From positions 407,876 to 439,875 of the forward strand of contig NZ_CM001976.1 of NCBI RefSeq assembly GCF_000406145.1: a stretch of 32,000 bases of DNA, written 5' to 3'. How positions within the stretch are numbered: the first letter of the stretch is position 1; each line of letters starts with the position of its first letter. The notes beneath the pieces were generated by a model that was given only the letters and a program-made list of their open reading frames with translations, had not been told where the DNA came from and did no database searches. Below, piece by piece: positions 26,640 to 32,000 of this stretch. The position numbers and the translations under genes were made by a program. This DNA comes from Dickeya dadantii NCPPB 898 (lineage in GTDB: Bacteria > Pseudomonadota > Gammaproteobacteria > Enterobacterales > Enterobacteriaceae).

Positions 26640-28841
26640 ATGGGGTCTCGAACTTTGGATAGCATTGTGGGAAAGCTCAATCCGCTATTGCGGCTAGCAG
26701 CCATCTCGGGCGTCGAAGCTGCGATCACATTCCATATTCTTCGGGGTGATGACTTGGATGCCCGCGATAGCAGTGGCTCAACGCCTCTGATCCTCGCCGC
26801 ATCTAGGAGAAACAGCGGGGCTGTAAGGCTTCTACTTGACGCGGGGGCAAATCCGACACTTGTCGATCCAGAAGGGATGAATGCTCTAGCGCATGCCTTA
26901 CGAGCCAATTGCCTAGAGACAATTGAGATACTAAGTGAGGCATTCAATATGCCACCCTTGGAGGCCACTGAGTCAGATGAAGTAATTACCAACAATCAGG
27001 AAAAGATATCCTCTTGCTTCGATAAAATATCTGATGGCCAGGCATCGGGGAGCGAATCCCACGCAGTGGGCAAGAATATCCCTACCTCTCCTGAATATCA
27101 CTTCGAGCCCATTTCCCCCAAGGCAACGACTCGATATATTTTTGAAGTCGATTCCCTTTCTCTAGATCCTCTTTCCTTGGATGCTGAATTTGAGGACAAC
27201 TGGGAAGTTGAGATTAACCCTGTTGCGCCTGTTGGTGACCAACATGTTGCAGAGGCCGTCAAGAATGTTTACAAGGCGATAGGTCAACATAAGGCAGTAG
27301 ATAACGACGAGGACTGGGGTGATATCGATCTCTATCTTCCTGTAATAAAATCCATTTTAGACCATGAGGGCGTTGATTATACCCTCCGGGTTTTCCTCCT
27401 TGCAGCAATCCGCGATGGGATTATTTCTGAAGAAAACCTTGTTGAACTTTGCTTAAACGCCAACGGATCACGCAATGAAGATTTTGAGAGATTCATTGGT
27501 ATTGCTGCAGGAGAGCTTGGTGCGATTGTGGACGAACAGAGTGGAGTCACTATAAATGATACCTCTCTCGATGAGTCGTCTCTTGAGGAAAAACTCCTTC
27601 TCGATGAAGCAATTGAGTTCATCAAGGATCTAGCCTCGGATCACAATGAACCGTTCAGATTTTATTCCAAGGATATCCGATGCAGGCTTCTTGAGGCCAA
27701 AGAAGAGATCGCTCTTAGTCGAGAGATGGAAGAGGCTTGGCAAGATGTGCTATCGGTCCTTGCTCAATGGCCAGAAGGACTCGCGGTGTTATTTGACTGT
27801 GCTGAAAAGGTTTTGAGAGGGGAGGTTGATGCTGGAGCGTTCAGCACTGGACCTGATTTGCTCCTAGAAGATGGGGCAACAGAACTGGAGGATGTGTACG
27901 ATGAGGATGAAGAGGAAAAAGAGCATGATGCCGGCTCAGCATTTATGACTGCTATAGCAGCCGTTCGGAGTAAGATTGGAGACTTCCAGCGAACCAAAGA
28001 AGCATTAGAAGCGGCTAAGCTAACTCGCGGATTTCTTTTTGAGCTAGCCGAACGAGCCAAAGATGATTCTAATGCAAAGGGCCTTACTGATGCTCTTGAG
28101 CGGCAGTCCTATGCTCGGGATCGCTTGATTCAGTGTAATCTTAGACTCGCTTTATCCATTGCCAAGAAGCACCGGTGGTCAGGAGTGCCGATGGACGATC
28201 TTGTTCAAGAGGCAAACATTGGCCTTATAAAAGCGGTTGAACGCTACGACTGGCGCAGAGGTTTTCGCTTCTCTACATACGCAACGTGGTGGATTCGTCA
28301 ACAGATAACACGTTCCATTGCTGACAAAAGTAGGAGTGTTAGGGCACCGGTACACGTTCAGGATAAGGCTTGGAAGATCATACGGGAGCGCAATGAGATC
28401 GAGTTGCAGAGAGGGTACCCTGAGCGTGATATCGACACAGCTTCGCGGCTCGGAATTCCGCTATCAAAAATATGGATTCTCCTGTCGATATTTGATGATG
28501 CAGAGTCTCTTGATGAGATCGATTTGAATATGAGTTGTGCTCGAGTGGAGCTTCTCGTGAATCGGAATGCCTCGGCACCATTTAAGCTTGTTGAGAATTC
28601 GTCTCTCTCCTCTACGCTCTCGGGAATGCTGGAAGAGTTAGATGAAAGGTCTCGCACAGTGATTATGTATCGCTTTGGATTAGGCAACATTGACGCGATG
28701 ACCTTGGAAGAGGTAGGGCAGATCTTCGGGGTTACACGTGAGCGTATCCGCCAAATAGAGTCCAAAGCGATGCAGAAACTTTCTAGTGAGAAAAGGAAGG
28801 AGATCTTGGCTTCCTTTATGAGCGAGGATGATTATCAATAA
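26640..28841 (+). CDS. Ankyrin-repeat / RpoD-like sigma-70 fusion protein carrying all sigma regions 1.1-4
   Basis: 733 aa. Residues about 12-100 are ankyrin repeats (GSTPLILAASRRNSGAVRLLLDAGANPTLVDPEGMNALAHALRAN). Residues about 250-300 are region 1.1-like. Region 1.2 is EPFRFYSKDIRCRLLEAKEEIALSREME. Region 2 is DLVQEANIGLIKAVERYDWRRGFRFSTYATWWIRQQITRSIADKSRSVRAPVHV. Region 4 is RTVIMYRFGLGNIDAMTLEEVGQIFGVTRERIRQIESKAMQKL. The protein is colinear with E. coli RpoD to the C-terminus. Confidence 0.9.
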   Translation: MGSRTLDSIVGKLNPLLRLAAISGVEAAITFHILRGDDLDARDSSGSTPLILAASRRNSGAVRLLLDAGANPTLVDPEGMNALAHALRANCLETIEILSEAFNMPPLEATESDEVITNNQEKISSCFDKISDGQASGSESHAVGKNIPTSPEYHFEPISPKATTRYIFEVDSLSLDPLSLDAEFEDNWEVEINPVAPVGDQHVAEAVKNVYKAIGQHKAVDNDEDWGDIDLYLPVIKSILDHEGVDYTLRVFLLAAIRDGIISEENLVELCLNANGSRNEDFERFIGIAAGELGAIVDEQSGVTINDTSLDESSLEEKLLLDEAIEFIKDLASDHNEPFRFYSKDIRCRLLEAKEEIALSREMEEAWQDVLSVLAQWPEGLAVLFDCAEKVLRGEVDAGAFSTGPDLLLEDGATELEDVYDEDEEEKEHDAGSAFMTAIAAVRSKIGDFQRTKEALEAAKLTRGFLFELAERAKDDSNAKGLTDALERQSYARDRLIQCNLRLALSIAKKHRWSGVPMDDLVQEANIGLIKAVERYDWRRGFRFSTYATWWIRQQITRSIADKSRSVRAPVHVQDKAWKIIRERNEIELQRGYPERDIDTASRLGIPLSKIWILLSIFDDAESLDEIDLNMSCARVELLVNRNASAPFKLVENSSLSSTLSGMLEELDERSRTVIMYRFGLGNIDAMTLEEVGQIFGVTRERIRQIESKAMQKLSSEKRKEILASFMSEDDYQ

Positions 28842-30334: not shown

Positions 30335-32000
30335 ACATGATGGAAGAGGTTGGCTTGCAAGCTGAGCTACTAGAAAACGTCATCGCCACGGCTCAACGGC
30401 TAGTAAAGGCAGAGAAAGATAAATCTAAGATAACCCCGGCGTTCATTGCTGAGAAGGTGAGTTTTGCCACGAAGATGTTTGCTGATGACTCACTTCACTC
30501 GGTGGATCAAAATCAGGCTATTGCCATACTAATTCAGCGTTTCAGTCACCGAATCGGTAAGCCAACCACGTTGAAGAACGATGTAGACCATGTCGACTGG
30601 CTTTCTGCAGCGAGAAAACGTGATTGGCGCTATTGGCGTCGATATGGAGACTACTTGGAATCCAAGCTTTCCGACGTTGTAGTCGAGGGGCTTAACGAGA
30701 CCACTGATGATATCCTCAGCCTCCTGGAGGATCCAGAAAGATCGGACTCATGGGATCGTAGGGGGCTTGTTGTCGGGCATGTGCAATCAGGCAAGACCAG
30801 CAACTACTCAGGACTAATTTGTAAGGCAGCTGATGCTGGCTATAAGATTATCATCGTCCTTGCAGGCATGCATAATAACTTGAGGTCGCAAACTCAGATG
30901 CGGCTAGAAGAGAGTTTTCTTGGCTACGAGACGACCACTGATCGTGATGTCGGTATACCAATAGGTGTTGCAGAGTTCGGTGATGACCTGAAGACCAACT
31001 CTGCAACAACGCGGGCTGAGAACGGTGATTTTAGTAAAGCGATTGCGAGGCGATTTCACGGTATATCTCCAGAGGAGAGGCCATGGCTTTTCGTTGTAAA
31101 GAAGCAAAAGACCGTCCTCACAGCTCTGTTGGACTGGATTCAAAAACGAGTAGCGGACAGCACCGACTCAATTGATGGTCGCAAGCTTGTGACTAAACTT
31201 CCGCTTCTAATGATCGACGACGAGGCAGATAACGCGTCAGTTGATACTGGAGAGCAGATATTCAAGGATGATGGTACACCTGACGAAGAGCATCAGCCTA
31301 AGACTATTAACAGTCTTATTCGTCAGATCCTTCATACCTTCACTAGGAAGGCGTATGTTGGCTATACTGCAACGCCTTTTGCCAACATTTTTATCCACCA
31401 CAAAGGTGCAACAGCGAAGGAAGGCCCTGATCTTTTCCCTCGTTCGTTCATCATCAATTTAGCAGCTCCATCCAATTACGTTGGTCCTACGCAGATGTTT
31501 GGCAAGATGACGAAGGATGGCCGTACGGAGGGGCTGCCTCTATCTAGAAACATCTGTGATCATTACGACCCCAAGTCAGAGTCTGGGTGGATGCCACCAA
31601 AGCACAAGAAGACTCATATCCCTAATTACAACGGCGAAGAGGCGATTCCTCCATCGTTGCAGCAAGCTATCTACACGTTCATTTTGTCATGTGCTGCCCG
31701 TCAATTACGAGGGCAAGGCACCCAACATAGCTCCATGCTGATTCACGTCACCCGTTTCGTTGATGTTCAAAAGCTCGTGTGCGAACAGGTCGATAAGACG
31801 GTACGTCGCATGCGGCAGCGTATAACTCGAGGAATGGGGGCGGAGGAGATTCTGGGACAGTTGCACCAACTTTGGAACGATGACTTTCTTCCTGTTCGAG
31901 ACAAAGTTGCAGTGCTCCTACCAAAAGAGGAGTGTCCTCCGAAAATGCCGACTTGGAATGATATTCTCGCTGTTCTGCCTGAGGTGCTGGAGGATATAGA
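30331..32000 (+). CDS. Z1-domain-type P-loop NTPase (SF2 helicase-like), 3-prime partial
   Basis: I translated this open frame by hand; it is absent from the ORF track because it runs off the window. It begins MNMMEEVGLQAELLEN... The Walker A motif is GLVVGHVQSGKTSNYSGLICKAADAGYKIIIVLAG and the Walker B/DEAD-like motif is LPLLMIDDEADNASV, followed by YVGYTATPFANIF. The start overlaps the upstream stop (ATGA at 30331-30334). Confidence 0.85.
   Translation, partial: MNMMEEVGLQAELLENVIATAQRLVKAEKDKSKITPAFIAEKVSFATKMFADDSLHSVDQNQAIAILIQRFSHRIGKPTTLKNDVDHVDWLSAARKRDWRYWRRYGDYLESKLSDVVVEGLNETTDDILSLLEDPERSDSWDRRGLVVGHVQSGKTSNYSGLICKAADAGYKIIIVLAGMHNNLRSQTQMRLEESFLGYETTTDRDVGIPIGVAEFGDDLKTNSATTRAENGDFSKAIARRFHGISPEERPWLFVVKKQKTVLTALLDWIQKRVADSTDSIDGRKLVTKLPLLMIDDEADNASVDTGEQIFKDDGTPDEEHQPKTINSLIRQILHTFTRKAYVGYTATPFANIFIHHKGATAKEGPDLFPRSFIINLAAPSNYVGPTQMFGKMTKDGRTEGLPLSRNICDHYDPKSESGWMPPKHKKTHIPNYNGEEAIPPSLQQAIYTFILSCAARQLRGQGTQHSSMLIHVTRFVDVQKLVCEQVDKTVRRMRQRITRGMGAEEILGQLHQLWNDDFLPVRDKVAVLLPKEECPPKMPTWNDILAVLPEVLEDI

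What the first reader, a model, noticed from the sequence alone, without database searches (positions are those of the whole stretch)
26640..32000. Translationally coupled operon: ankyrin-RpoD-like sigma factor, MORC-like GHKL ATPase, Z1 P-loop NTPase, a candidate undescribed defence or transcription-linked system
The three long genes are on one strand and joined by overlapping stop/start codons (TAATG at 28839-28843, ATGA at 30331-30334). This indicates obligatory co-expression and probably a complex. GHKL (MORC/paraMORC-type) ATPases paired with Z1-type SF2-like NTPases are known from comparative genomics as components of restriction-like conflict systems. They usually occur next to a DNA methyltransferase and nucleases (Iyer, Abhiman and Aravind 2008). 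Here the gene in the leading position is a complete sigma-70 family protein with an ankyrin-repeat N-terminus. I know of no described defence or R-M-like system that has a sigma factor as an integral, translationally coupled subunit. I see three possible roles. One is a bait or decoy for phage proteins that target host sigma-70, triggering the ATPases. Another is recruitment of the ATPases to RNA polymerase or open complexes on foreign DNA. The third is an island-specific sigma that reprograms RNAP.
Basis: partly seen in the sequence, partly recalled or inferred. Interest (0 to 1): 0.9.

Follow-up and report, generated by a model that had tools for sequence, protein, structure and literature searches.

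The report
Known MZA anti-phage operon (mzaABC)
These three overlapping genes are the first three genes (mzaA, mzaB, mzaC) of the MZA anti-phage defence system, which was described and tested in 2020 and whose first protein is already catalogued as an ankyrin-sigma-70 fusion, so the locus is real and correctly read but it is not a new system.

Summary
Three same-strand ORFs lie at 26640-28841, 28841-30334 and 30331 to beyond 32000, joined by TAATG and ATGA overlaps. Their domains are Ank + sigma-70 r2/r4, HATPase_c_3, and a P-loop followed by Z1.

The "undescribed system" reading does not hold. PADLOC and NCBIfam profiles name all three proteins MzaA, MzaB and MzaC. NCBIfam NF041931 is titled [quoted passage not shown]. 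RefSeq annotates mzaABCDE in E. coli, and E. coli MzaA has the same Ank-sigma architecture.

The source is Dickeya dadantii, and the operon runs off the window. In Pectobacterium, Yersinia, Aeromonas, Azonexus and 22 metagenomic loci, the Ank-sigma gene is always followed by mzaB, mzaC, mzaD (a PD-(D/E)xK nuclease) and mzaE (AIPR). The junction overlaps are conserved. A C5 cytosine methylase and/or Vsr usually lies alongside.

The operon sits in a tRNA-Leu/LptG defence island. What MzaA does is not addressed in any paper I could read. Its equivalents of the sigma-70 residues that contact promoter DNA are invariant or nearly so at 12 of 14 positions, with conservative substitutions at the other two. 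I infer that it really engages RNA polymerase or promoters.

Novelty: already known. Interest: low.

The parts
26640..28841 (+). mzaA. Layout: ankyrin repeats (about residues 12-105), a variable acidic linker, a conserved middle domain (181-335), then sigma-70 with a region 1.2-like segment, a non-conserved insert, and regions 2, 3 and 4 (about residues 336-728). The real start may be TTG 26655 or GTG 26667.
   Evidence: Pfam Ank_2, Sigma70_r2 and Sigma70_r4. PADLOC MzaA 3.5e-62. NCBIfam NF041931 MzaA is the best hit at 470.9 bits and is full length, 12-729 against profile 1-716/726. Residues 490-727 align to RpoD and SigA chains in the PDB at about 1e-52. P0001 from Dickeya dadantii is 100% identical.
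28841..30334 (+). mzaB: a GHKL (MutL/MORC-type) ATPase. The N-box (DVVDNA), G1 (DDGHGM) and G2 (GRFGMGLKT) motifs are intact.
   Evidence: Pfam HATPase_c_3 1.5e-28. PADLOC MzaB 1.1e-173, covering 1-496 of 500 profile positions. NCBIfam MzaB 711 bits. 50% identity over the full length to RefSeq-annotated E. coli MzaB.
30331..32000 (+). mzaC, the 5' 556 codons only. It encodes a P-loop/DEAD-like NTPase followed by a Z1 domain. The gene runs off the window; orthologues are 961-969 aa.
   Evidence: Pfam Z1 at 442-556, truncated by the window end. PADLOC MzaC 2e-190, profile 13-549 of 952. NCBIfam MzaC 779 bits. 52% identity to E. coli MzaC.
26094..26639 (+). The ~550-bp region upstream of mzaA, which travels with the operon. 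It contains a sigma-70-like promoter match, TTGACA-16-AATTAT, at 26198-26225. If that promoter is used, the leader is about 415 nt.
   Evidence: The DNA alignment is conserved through Dickeya, Pectobacterium and Yersinia, including the promoter-like hexamers. The promoter scan scores 10 of 12, but the region has about as many matches as its shuffles, so this is weak evidence. The leader folds with z = -2.46 against shuffles. There is no Rfam match.
24751..25209 (+). A degraded P4-type integrase belonging to the MZA island. An N-terminal fragment and a C-terminal fragment remain, with an internal deletion between them.
   Evidence: The ORF at 24751-24999 begins MALTDIKVRTAKP.... Direct repeats D1 and D2 match 24974-25188 to the 3' end of the intact integrase gene at 19638-19853 with 74-76% identity. 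In Pectobacterium L082 and Yersinia L083 an intact integrase occupies this position.
24551..24567 (+). An att-like copy of the tRNA-Leu 3' end (GTCCGGCCTTCGCACCA). It marks the boundary between a newer island (18390-24567) and the older MZA island.
   Evidence: Read directly. The tRNA 3' end is GTCCGGCCTTCGGCACCA at about 18372-18389, and the second copy lies at about 24551-24567. The tRNA-Leu(CAA) gene is at 18305-18389.
25236..26093 (+). A DUF5677 gene immediately upstream of the mzaA leader. It accompanies the operon in Dickeya and Pectobacterium only, so it is probably not a core component.
   Evidence: Pfam DUF5677 4.5e-07. The gene is present at the same position in L081 and L082 but is not called in the Yersinia, Aeromonas or Azonexus loci. 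It has no PADLOC or NCBIfam hit.

Best explanation
The region is the promoter-proximal part (mzaA, mzaB and the 5' 58% of mzaC) of an MZA (mzaABCDE) anti-phage defence operon. It is carried on an integrase-borne island at the lptG/tRNA-Leu(CAA) hotspot of Dickeya dadantii.

By inference from orthologous loci, the operon continues beyond the window with the rest of mzaC, then mzaD (DUF4420, a PD-(D/E)xK nuclease) and mzaE (AIPR). All are translationally coupled. A convergent Dcm-type C5 cytosine methyltransferase follows, probably with a Vsr gene.

How it most likely works:
- Shown for the E. coli homologue in a preprint: the system restricts T4 directly, without growth arrest. MzaD cuts DNA in vitro. 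Nuclease-site mutations abolish protection against wild-type glucosyl-hmC T4 and reduce it against the hmC and unmodified-C T4 mutants.
- Inferred: the MzaB GHKL ATPase and the MzaC P-loop/Z1 NTPase form the ATP-driven DNA-handling engine that licenses MzaD. In this clade the adjacent C5 methylase marks self DNA and Vsr repairs the resulting T:G mismatches.
- Inferred, roughly 40% likely: MzaA is a stoichiometric subunit that binds RNA polymerase core and/or sigma-70-type promoter DNA through its intact regions 1.2-4.2. Its Ank and middle-domain N-terminus, which replaces region 1.1, connects it to MzaBCDE. The nuclease machine would thereby be coupled to transcription initiation on incoming DNA.
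For: Identity as MZA.
- The PADLOC MzaA, MzaB and MzaC models are the top hits at 3.5e-62, 1.1e-173 and 2e-190.
- The NCBIfam MzaA, MzaB and MzaC models are the top hits and are collinear over the full length.
- RefSeq E. coli loci annotated mzaA-E have the same gene order and overlaps. E. coli MzaA has Ank + Sigma70_r2 + Sigma70_r4.
- Identity to the E. coli proteins is 24-40% for MzaA, 50% for MzaB and 52% for MzaC.

Operon continuation.
- Orthologues at 85-94% protein identity sit at the same valS-holC-pepA-lptF-lptG-tRNA-integrase site in Pectobacterium and Yersinia. They carry mzaA-B-C-D-E, a convergent DNA_methylase and Vsr (Vsr is fragmentary in Yersinia).
- All five PADLOC Mza models hit the Pectobacterium proteins.
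- Aeromonas and Azonexus have the same arrangement.
- All 22 metagenomic loci with downstream DNA have mzaB immediately after the Ank-sigma gene, followed by C, D and E as far as each contig reaches.
- Junction overlaps are conserved.

MzaA is a functional sigma-like protein.
- Residues 490-727 align end to end with RpoD_Cterm (1-237 of 238) and with RpoD and SigA structures.
- The equivalents of E. coli sigma-70 Y430, W433, W434, R436, Q437, R441, R584, E585, R586 and R588 are invariant in 121 family members. H455 and Q589 are conserved in 120 of 121. T440 is S or T, and E458 is E or D. The residue roles come from my own knowledge of sigma-70.
- The middle domain occurs in 555 clusters at 50% identity. 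It is almost always fused to Ank (52 of 60 sampled) and to Sigma70_r2 (58 of 60). 13 of 60 even retain the RpoD non-essential region, Sigma70_ner.

Literature.
- PMC9523054 refers to 'mzaA (a sigma factor)' and the 'validated mzaABCDE system'.
- bioRxiv 10.1101/2022.06.16.496414 reports protection against T4, MzaD nuclease activity and no growth arrest.
- bioRxiv 10.1101/2024.01.28.577318 reports that mza is over-represented in LptG-YjiA defence islands of Serratia.
Against: - The NCBIfam scores are below the curated equivalog cut-offs: MzaA 470.9 against 800, MzaB 711 against 850, MzaC 779 against 1500 (the last on a truncated protein). This is a diverged clade, not the reference E. coli/Salmonella type.
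- mzaD and mzaE of this genome lie beyond the window. I could not retrieve the Dickeya contig, so completeness of this copy is inferred.
- No experiment exists for this clade. The E. coli loci have no adjacent methylase, so the self-marking role of the methylase is not general to MZA.
- Nothing I could read tests whether mzaA is required, or whether MzaA binds RNA polymerase. Gao et al. 2020 is not held in the library.
Confidence: 0.93

Rival explanations
1. MzaA is only the operon's dedicated transcription factor. It would be an island-specific sigma that switches the mza genes on, for example during infection, and would not be a physical part of the effector complex.
For: It is the first gene of the operon. 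All sigma regions needed for initiation are intact. A conserved upstream region with a promoter-like site travels with the operon. Sigma/anti-sigma control of defence islands is known elsewhere, for example DdvS/DdvA in PMC11506125, which was listed.
Against: Its residues for reading the -10, extended -10 and -35 elements are the same as those of housekeeping sigma-70. It would therefore not provide a private promoter specificity. Dedicated regulators of this kind are usually small ECF sigmas, not 730-900-aa group-1-like proteins with an Ank domain and a conserved extra domain. The stop/start overlap with mzaB is conserved in 23 of 31 loci. That fits stoichiometric co-production better than a catalytic regulator, but it is not proof.
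Confidence: 0.2
2. MzaA is a decoy or sensor. It would mimic host sigma-70 so that phage proteins that hijack sigma-70 (such as T4 AsiA-type region 4 binders) bind it, and that binding would release or activate the MzaBCDE nuclease machine.
For: The sigma-70-like surfaces are conserved, including region 4. The E. coli system acts on T4. From my own knowledge, T4 remodels sigma-70 region 4 with AsiA. The N-terminal Ank repeats are a typical protein-protein interaction module.
Against: The sigma domain is not host-like. It is about equally distant (roughly 40-45% identity) from the RpoD and SigA proteins of unrelated phyla, and its best PDB hits are not enterobacterial RpoD. A pure protein decoy would not need invariant DNA-melting and base-reading residues. 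According to the preprint, defence strength depends on the cytosine modification state of phage DNA and on the MzaD nuclease. That points to DNA sensing rather than protein sensing.
Confidence: 0.12
3. This is an undescribed defence or transcription-linked system, distinct from anything catalogued.
For: The NCBI product name for the Dickeya protein is only 'sigma-70 family RNA polymerase sigma factor'. NCBIfam scores fall below the equivalog cut-offs. The clade differs from the E. coli reference in being linked to a C5 methylase and Vsr.
Against: All three proteins have Mza models as their top hits by far. The five-gene order, the overlaps and the MzaA architecture are the same as in RefSeq-annotated E. 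coli mzaABCDE. GHKL + SFII-helicase-like + methylase + Vsr neighbourhoods were already described by Iyer et al. 2008.
Confidence: 0.03
4. The Dickeya copy is a decaying remnant: an operon truncated or disrupted downstream of the window, in an island whose integrase is already degraded.
For: The island's own integrase is a pseudogene. Disrupted copies exist elsewhere: IS421 in mzaB of E. coli G1/2, a transposase in mzaA of L120, and a truncated mzaA in L001.
Against: mzaA, mzaB and the visible 556 codons of mzaC are intact ORFs with catalytic motifs preserved. They are 84-94% identical to complete operons in Pectobacterium and Yersinia.
Confidence: 0.07

Closest known systems
MZA / mzaABCDE anti-phage system (Gao et al. 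2020, Science 369:1077; PADLOC models PDLC02203-02207; NCBIfam NF041931-NF041933 for MzaA-C; RefSeq-annotated in E. coli)
   Same: The gene order is the same: Ank-sigma70, GHKL ATPase, Z1 NTPase, then (in relatives) PD-(D/E)xK and AIPR. The overlapping junctions are the same, and so is the MzaA domain architecture. The Mza profiles are the top hits for every protein.
   Different: Identity to the E. coli proteins is only 24-52%, and scores are below the NCBIfam equivalog cut-offs. This clade is almost always flanked by a C5 cytosine methylase and/or Vsr, which the E. coli loci lack. mzaD and mzaE of this genome could not be seen.
MORC/paraMORC GHKL ATPase neighbourhoods with SFII helicase-like, nuclease, Dcm and Vsr genes (Iyer, Abhiman and Aravind 2008, PMC2292703)
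   Same: A GHKL+S5-type ATPase is paired with a helicase-like NTPase, a restriction-endonuclease-fold nuclease, AIPR, a cytosine methylase and Vsr.
   Different: That paper does not mention a sigma factor or ankyrin repeats (0 occurrences of either word). The Ank-sigma first gene is the feature specific to MZA.
Type II GHKL/Z1/AIPR candidate system of Miller et al. 2022 (PMC9523054)
   Same: It shares the domain set with mzaBCDE, with MORC and AIPR association.
   Different: Those authors report only ~20% identity to MzaB-E, with mzaA 'present only in a few of the systems'. Here mzaA is present and tightly coupled.
Housekeeping sigma-70 (RpoD) and group 2 sigmas (RpoS, SigB)
   Same: Regions 1.2, 2, 3 and 4 align end to end. 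The residues for -10 melting, -10 and extended -10 reading, and -35 reading are conserved. Some family members keep the RpoD non-essential region.
   Different: Region 1.1 is replaced by ankyrin repeats plus a family-specific middle domain that has no detectable structural relative. The gene lies in a mobile defence operon, not in the rpsU-dnaG-rpoD context. Scores are far below the RpoD equivalog cut-off (256 against 555).

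Membership tests
MZA (mzaABCDE) defence system | The first gene encodes MzaA, an ankyrin-repeat N-terminus fused to a sigma-70 family domain | tested here: met
   Pfam finds Ank_2, Sigma70_r2 and Sigma70_r4. PADLOC MzaA scores 3.5e-62. NCBIfam MzaA is the top hit and is collinear, 12-729 against 1-716/726. RefSeq E. coli MzaA has the same architecture.
MZA (mzaABCDE) defence system | The second gene encodes MzaB, a GHKL/MutL-like ATPase | tested here: met
   HATPase_c_3. PADLOC MzaB 1.1e-173 over the full length. 50% identity to E. coli MzaB.
MZA (mzaABCDE) defence system | The third gene encodes MzaC, a P-loop NTPase with a Z1 domain | tested here: met
   Z1 domain. PADLOC MzaC 2e-190 on the visible 556 residues. 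52% identity to E. coli MzaC. The C-terminal ~410 residues lie outside the window.
MZA (mzaABCDE) defence system | The fourth and fifth genes encode MzaD (DUF4420, PD-(D/E)xK) and MzaE (AIPR) | not testable with these tools
   They lie beyond base 32000, and the Dickeya contig could not be retrieved. Both genes are present in every related locus that is long enough. They match PADLOC MzaD at 3.6e-58 and MzaE at 6.5e-208 in Pectobacterium.
MZA (mzaABCDE) defence system | NCBIfam equivalog score cut-offs (the thresholds PGAP uses to assign the names) | tested here: not met
   MzaA 470.9 against a cut-off of 800. MzaB 711 against 850. MzaC 779 against 1500, on a truncated protein. These cut-offs define near-orthologues of the E. 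coli/Salmonella reference. The failure marks a diverged clade, consistent with NCBI's generic product name for P0001.
MZA (mzaABCDE) defence system | Protects against phage when expressed | not testable with these tools
   Reported only for the Salmonella-type and E. coli operons. No data exist for this clade.
Classical restriction-modification (methylase-protected nuclease) | A cognate DNA methyltransferase is encoded with the nuclease genes | tested here: inconclusive
   No methylase lies inside the window. A convergent C5 methylase, with or without Vsr, flanks mzaE in the Pectobacterium, Yersinia, Aeromonas and Azonexus loci and in most metagenomic loci. It is absent next to E. coli MZA. 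Whether methylation protects self DNA was not tested.
Primary sigma factor RpoD (group 1) | Region 1.1 is present, and the protein scores as an RpoD equivalog | tested here: not met
   There is no Sigma70_r1_1 hit. The RpoD equivalog model NF004208 scores 256.5 against a cut-off of 555. Only 1 of 60 family members has region 1.1.
Sigma-70 family (functional sigma) | Conserved region 2 (core binding, -10 melting and recognition) and region 4.2 (-35 recognition) | tested here: met
   End-to-end alignment to RpoD_Cterm and to sigma structures. 12 of 14 promoter-contact positions are invariant or conserved in 120 of 121 homologues. The other two vary only conservatively, S/T and E/D. Binding to RNA polymerase itself was not tested.

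The most novel reading that the evidence does not exclude
The system is known, but nothing in the literature I could reach addresses the job of its sigma subunit.

The most novel reading that my evidence leaves open is this. MzaA forms a genuine holoenzyme with host RNA polymerase core. Because its promoter-reading residues are those of sigma-70, it would go to the same promoters that incoming phage and plasmid DNA must use. Through its Ank and middle-domain N-terminus, which replaces region 1.1, it would physically deliver or license the MzaB/C ATPases and the MzaD nuclease at open complexes. This would be a transcription-initiation-coupled restriction mechanism. In the Dickeya clade, a Dcm-type methylase would supply the self mark.
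Probability: 0.3. Interest if true: 0.65.

Novelty: already known. Interest (0 to 1): 0.2.

Why it matters
For the scan, this is a correct reading of raw sequence that rediscovers a catalogued defence system, so it should not be carried forward as a new system.

Three points retain some value.
- MZA is one of the few defence systems with a group-1-like sigma factor as a conserved, translationally coupled first gene, and I found no published test of what that subunit does.
- The family is large: 555 clusters at 50% identity carry the MzaA-specific middle domain. It is architecturally rigid, and it keeps the sigma-70 DNA-contact residues invariant. That makes an RNA polymerase- or promoter-linked mechanism a concrete, testable hypothesis.
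- The Dickeya/Pectobacterium/Yersinia/Aeromonas/Azonexus clade is consistently linked to a C5 methylase and Vsr, while the E. coli type is not. This suggests two modes of self/non-self handling within one system family.

Tried and rejected
1. The genome-contig scan with the full MzaA alignment was wasted. The tool chose region 2 peptides (DDLxQEAN, FSTYAxWW) that are identical in housekeeping RpoD, so 79 of the 80 loci were rpoD genes of unrelated bacteria. Only L001 was relevant.

2. I tried to retrieve the Dickeya contig to see beyond base 32000. Exact-product look-ups of MzaB, P0001, the 733-aa MzaA and the DUF5677 protein all returned 'not on record'. Megablast against E. coli genomes found nothing.

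3. Gao et al. 2020 (PMC7985843) is not held. What that paper says about mzaA requirements could not be checked.

4. I predicted the structure of the MzaA middle domain (residues 181-335) from a 30-sequence alignment. The result was pLDDT 72.8 and pTM 0.54. Foldseek against the PDB gave no match better than E = 2.5, so there is no fold assignment.

5. Literature searches for MzaC, MzaD, MzaE, 'Mza system', or ankyrin + sigma + GHKL + AIPR found no mechanistic study beyond the 2022 preprint. A search on MADS returned papers unrelated to this locus, and I did not pursue it.

6. Leader RNA. There is no Rfam family. The predicted fold is only modestly better than shuffles, z = -2.46. Small ORFs in the leader have no support. 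I do not claim it as an element.

7. I considered and rejected the idea that the ankyrin N-terminus is a novelty of this copy. The PADLOC MzaA profile aligned only from residue 187, which suggested this. However, the NCBIfam profile covers residues 12-729, E. coli MzaA has Ank repeats, and 52 of 60 distant family members do too.

Full report
**1. The observation**

Three long ORFs lie on the + strand: 26640..28841 (733 aa), 28841..30334 (497 aa), and 30331 to beyond 32000 (556 codons, no stop). The junctions read TAATG at 28839-28843 and ATGA at 30331-30334.

Pfam finds the following:
- Protein 1: Ank_2 (18-100), Sigma70_r2 (496-565) and Sigma70_r4 (664-714).
- Protein 2: HATPase_c_3.
- Protein 3: a Z1 domain from residue 442 to the window end, after a Walker A motif (GHVQSGKT) and a DDEAD box that are visible in the translation.

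So the description is accurate. Three small corrections apply:
- The mzaA start is ambiguous (ATG 26640, TTG 26655 or GTG 26667). NCBI's 724-aa product implies GTG 26667.
- The sigma part lacks region 1.1.
- The third gene is cut by the window.

**2. What it is**

PADLOC models give MzaA (3.5e-62), MzaB (1.1e-173) and MzaC (2e-190) as the top hits. NCBIfam gives NF041931 'MZA anti-phage system associated sigma-70 family RNA polymerase sigma factor MzaA', NF041932 MzaB and NF041933 MzaC as the top hits, all collinear.

A distant blastn of mzaB-mzaC against complete E. coli genomes hit 55 genomes, in genes that RefSeq annotates as mzaC. The surrounding loci are annotated mzaA to mzaE. The E. coli MzaA itself has Ank + Sigma70_r2 + Sigma70_r4. 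Identity between the window proteins and the E. coli proteins is 24-40% for MzaA, 50% for MzaB and 52% for MzaC.

The literature held here supports this:
- PMC9523054 refers to the 'validated mzaABCDE system' and to 'mzaA (a sigma factor)', citing Gao et al. 2020.
- A 2022 preprint cloned an E. coli mzaABCDE. It reported 10^3-10^4-fold protection against T4(C) and T4(hmC), weaker protection against glucosylated T4, no growth arrest, and DNA cleavage by purified MzaD.

The premise that no described defence system has a coupled sigma subunit is therefore wrong.

**3. Source and context**

The MzaA protein is 100% identical to a Dickeya dadantii protein that NCBI names only 'sigma-70 family RNA polymerase sigma factor'.

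The window's backbone (57-60% GC) carries ORFs at the positions and lengths of valS, holC, pepA, lptF and lptG in the relatives' loci. I did not run these window ORFs through Pfam myself. After them come tRNA-Leu(CAA) at 18305-18389 and then low-GC island DNA.

The island DNA is two islands in tandem. The first contains:
- an intact P4-type integrase;
- a dGTPase, which hits the PADLOC dGTPase model;
- a DUF6119/TIGR04141 protein;
- an unassigned 133-aa ORF;
- a GNAT-toxin/TacA-like pair.

This first island ends at a copy of the tRNA 3' end at about 24551-24567. The second, older island starts with a degraded integrase (24751-25209). It continues with a DUF5677 gene, a ~550-bp conserved leader, and the mza operon.

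Pectobacterium polaris and Yersinia enterocolitica carry the orthologous island at the same lptG-tRNA site. A Serratia study describes the LptG-YjiA site as a widespread enterobacterial defence hotspot in which mza is over-represented.

**4. Linkage and coupling across the family**

Relatives of MzaA form a large family with a fixed architecture. The top 120 hits almost all carry Ank + Sigma70_r2 + Sigma70_r4.

In five isolate loci from four genera, the gene is followed by HATPase_c_3, Z1 (961-969 aa), DUF4420 and AIPR, all overlapping. A convergent C5 DNA_methylase comes next, and Vsr is also present in Pectobacterium and Azonexus. All five PADLOC Mza models match the Pectobacterium proteins.

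A metagenome scan seeded with the MzaA-specific middle domain, which avoids the RpoD-like part, returned 33 loci:
- 22 have DNA downstream of the sigma gene. All 22 have mzaB next, followed by mzaC, mzaD and mzaE as far as each contig reaches.
- 10 are cut by contig ends.
- 1 (L120) has a transposase inserted in mzaA.

Junction census:
- A>B overlaps in 23 of 31 loci. The others have gaps of 5-52 nt, and one has a gap of 169 nt.
- B>C overlaps in 28 of 30.
- C>D is typically a 17-nt overlap.
- D>E is typically a 4-nt overlap.

Caveats: near-duplicate loci are included, and the script picks the start codon nearest the upstream stop.

A methylase and/or Vsr lies within almost every locus of this clade that is long enough, but not in E. 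coli.

**5. Anatomy of MzaA**

Conservation along the protein, measured as identity to the window residue across 121 sequences:

| Segment | Residues | Conservation |
|---|---|---|
| Ank repeats | 12-105 | 0.69 |
| Linker | 106-180 | 0.17 |
| Middle domain | 181-302 | 0.51 |
| Region 1.2-like | 336-400 | 0.63 |
| Insert | 401-488 | 0.40 |
| Region 2 | 489-570 | 0.82 |
| Region 3 | 571-655 | 0.45 |
| Region 4 | 656-728 | 0.66 |

Residues 490-727 align without large gaps to RpoD_Cterm (1-237 of 238) and to RpoD, SigA, SigB and RpoS structures at 1e-41 to 1e-52.

I mapped positions onto E. coli sigma-70 numbering; the residue roles come from my own knowledge of sigma-70:
- The equivalents of Y430, W433, W434, R436, Q437, R441, R584, E585, R586 and R588 are invariant in all 121 sequences.
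- H455 and Q589 are conserved in 120 of 121.
- T440 is S or T.
- E458 is E or D.

A profile search with the middle domain alone found 555 representative clusters at E ≤ 1e-3. Of 60 sampled, 58 have Sigma70_r2, 53 have r4, 52 have Ank_2, 39 have r1_2, 33 have r3, 13 have the RpoD 'non-essential region', and only 1 has region 1.1.

MzaA is thus best described as an RpoD-derived sigma whose region 1.1 has been replaced by ankyrin repeats plus a family-specific domain. That domain gave a moderate AlphaFold model (pLDDT 72.8) with no structural neighbour in the PDB (best E = 2.5).

**6. How it most likely works**

Shown, for the E. coli homologue and in a preprint only: direct, non-abortive restriction that depends on the MzaD nuclease for wild-type glucosylated T4, and is reduced but not lost for the hmC and unmodified-C mutants when that nuclease is mutated. 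Strength depends on phage cytosine modification.

Inferred from domain content and from Iyer et al. 2008:
- MzaB (GHKL) and MzaC (P-loop/Z1) act as an ATP-driven DNA-manipulating pair that controls the nuclease.
- In the Dickeya clade, the linked C5 methylase marks self DNA and Vsr repairs deamination damage.

Inferred from section 5, at about 40%: MzaA engages RNA polymerase core and/or sigma-70-type promoters, and ties the machine to transcription initiation on incoming DNA.

Rival roles for MzaA:
- Operon regulator only (about 20%). This is weakened because its promoter-reading residues equal those of sigma-70, so it would give no private specificity. The conserved stop/start coupling to mzaB also counts against it.
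- Decoy for phage proteins that target sigma-70 (about 12%). This is weakened because the sigma domain is not host-like; it is equally distant from the RpoD proteins of many phyla. Invariance of DNA-contact residues is also unnecessary for a protein decoy.

None of these roles is tested.

**7. Comparison and novelty**

The locus is a member of the MZA family by gene order, architecture and profile top hits. It fails the narrow NCBIfam equivalog cut-offs, which marks it as a diverged, methylase/Vsr-linked clade rather than something new. The methylase/Vsr/GHKL/helicase-like neighbourhood was itself described in 2008, though without the sigma gene.

Verdict: already known, low interest as a discovery. 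The only open and interesting point is the unexplained function of the sigma subunit. For that, the conservation data here give a concrete hypothesis.

Noticed in passing
window 18305-24567: A second, probably younger island is inserted between tRNA-Leu(CAA) and the MZA island. It carries an intact P4-type integrase (18609-19877), a dGTPase that matches the PADLOC dGTPase defence model (19976-21193), and a DUF6119/TIGR04141 'sporadically distributed' protein (21201-22865). The last two sit at 31% GC and are separated by 7 nt, so they may be a two-gene defence pair. The island is bounded by an imperfect repeat of the tRNA 3' end at about 24551-24567.
   Followed up: partly
window 23089-24333 (- strand): A GNAT acetyltransferase (23519-23998) overlaps a TacA-like antitoxin gene (23989-24333). 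This looks like a TacT/TacA-type toxin-antitoxin pair. A 133-aa ORF at 23089-23490 has no Pfam family.
   Followed up: no
window 14719-14910 (+): Rfam hit to Ysr276 (Yersinia sRNA 276, antisense class) at 181 bits against a gathering score of 100. It lies inside, and antisense to, the ORF at 13960-15627 (-). That ORF occupies the position of the pepA (Peptidase_M17) gene in the Pectobacterium and Yersinia loci.
   Followed up: no
L105 12138-13190; also L106, L118 and possibly L110: A subclade of metagenomic MZA operons has an extra ~1.1-kb gene between mzaC and mzaD. In L105 it encodes a Macro-domain protein (Pfam Macro 9.4e-16, no PADLOC hit). This hints at an ADP-ribose-related accessory function in some MZA systems.
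   Followed up: partly
L088 (Azonexus) mzaA 10001-12703 and many 870-900-aa homologues (for example P0031, P0056, P0094, P0118): About half of the MzaA homologues carry a C-terminal extension of about 150-170 aa after region 4. It has a conserved motif (…EAR.LGL.V.DRR..GGEL.IVAP…AF..L.A.GF…). The Dickeya protein lacks it, and Pfam does not assign it.
   Followed up: no
L086 (E. coli G1/2) 5760-8602; L120 452-3109; L001 9980-11758: Inactivated MZA copies exist. In E. coli G1/2, mzaB is split by IS421. In L120, mzaA is interrupted by a Mu/rve-type transposase. In L001, a Heliomicrobium MAG, a 592-aa Ank-sigma is truncated after region 3 and abuts convergent genes that, by eye, look like McrBC-type (a Walker A ATPase). 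These last genes were not run through Pfam.
   Followed up: partly
window 25236-26093: A DUF5677 gene sits between the degraded integrase and the mzaA leader, and is conserved at the same place in Pectobacterium polaris. It has no defence-database hit, and whether it has any functional tie to MZA is unknown.
   Followed up: partly
window 26094-26639: The ~550-bp non-coding stretch upstream of mzaA is conserved at the DNA level in Dickeya, Pectobacterium and Yersinia. Yersinia lacks one 55-bp block. The stretch includes a stem-loop just upstream of the start codon (about 26595-26630). As a whole it folds slightly better than shuffles (z = -2.46), and it has no Rfam family.
   Followed up: partly
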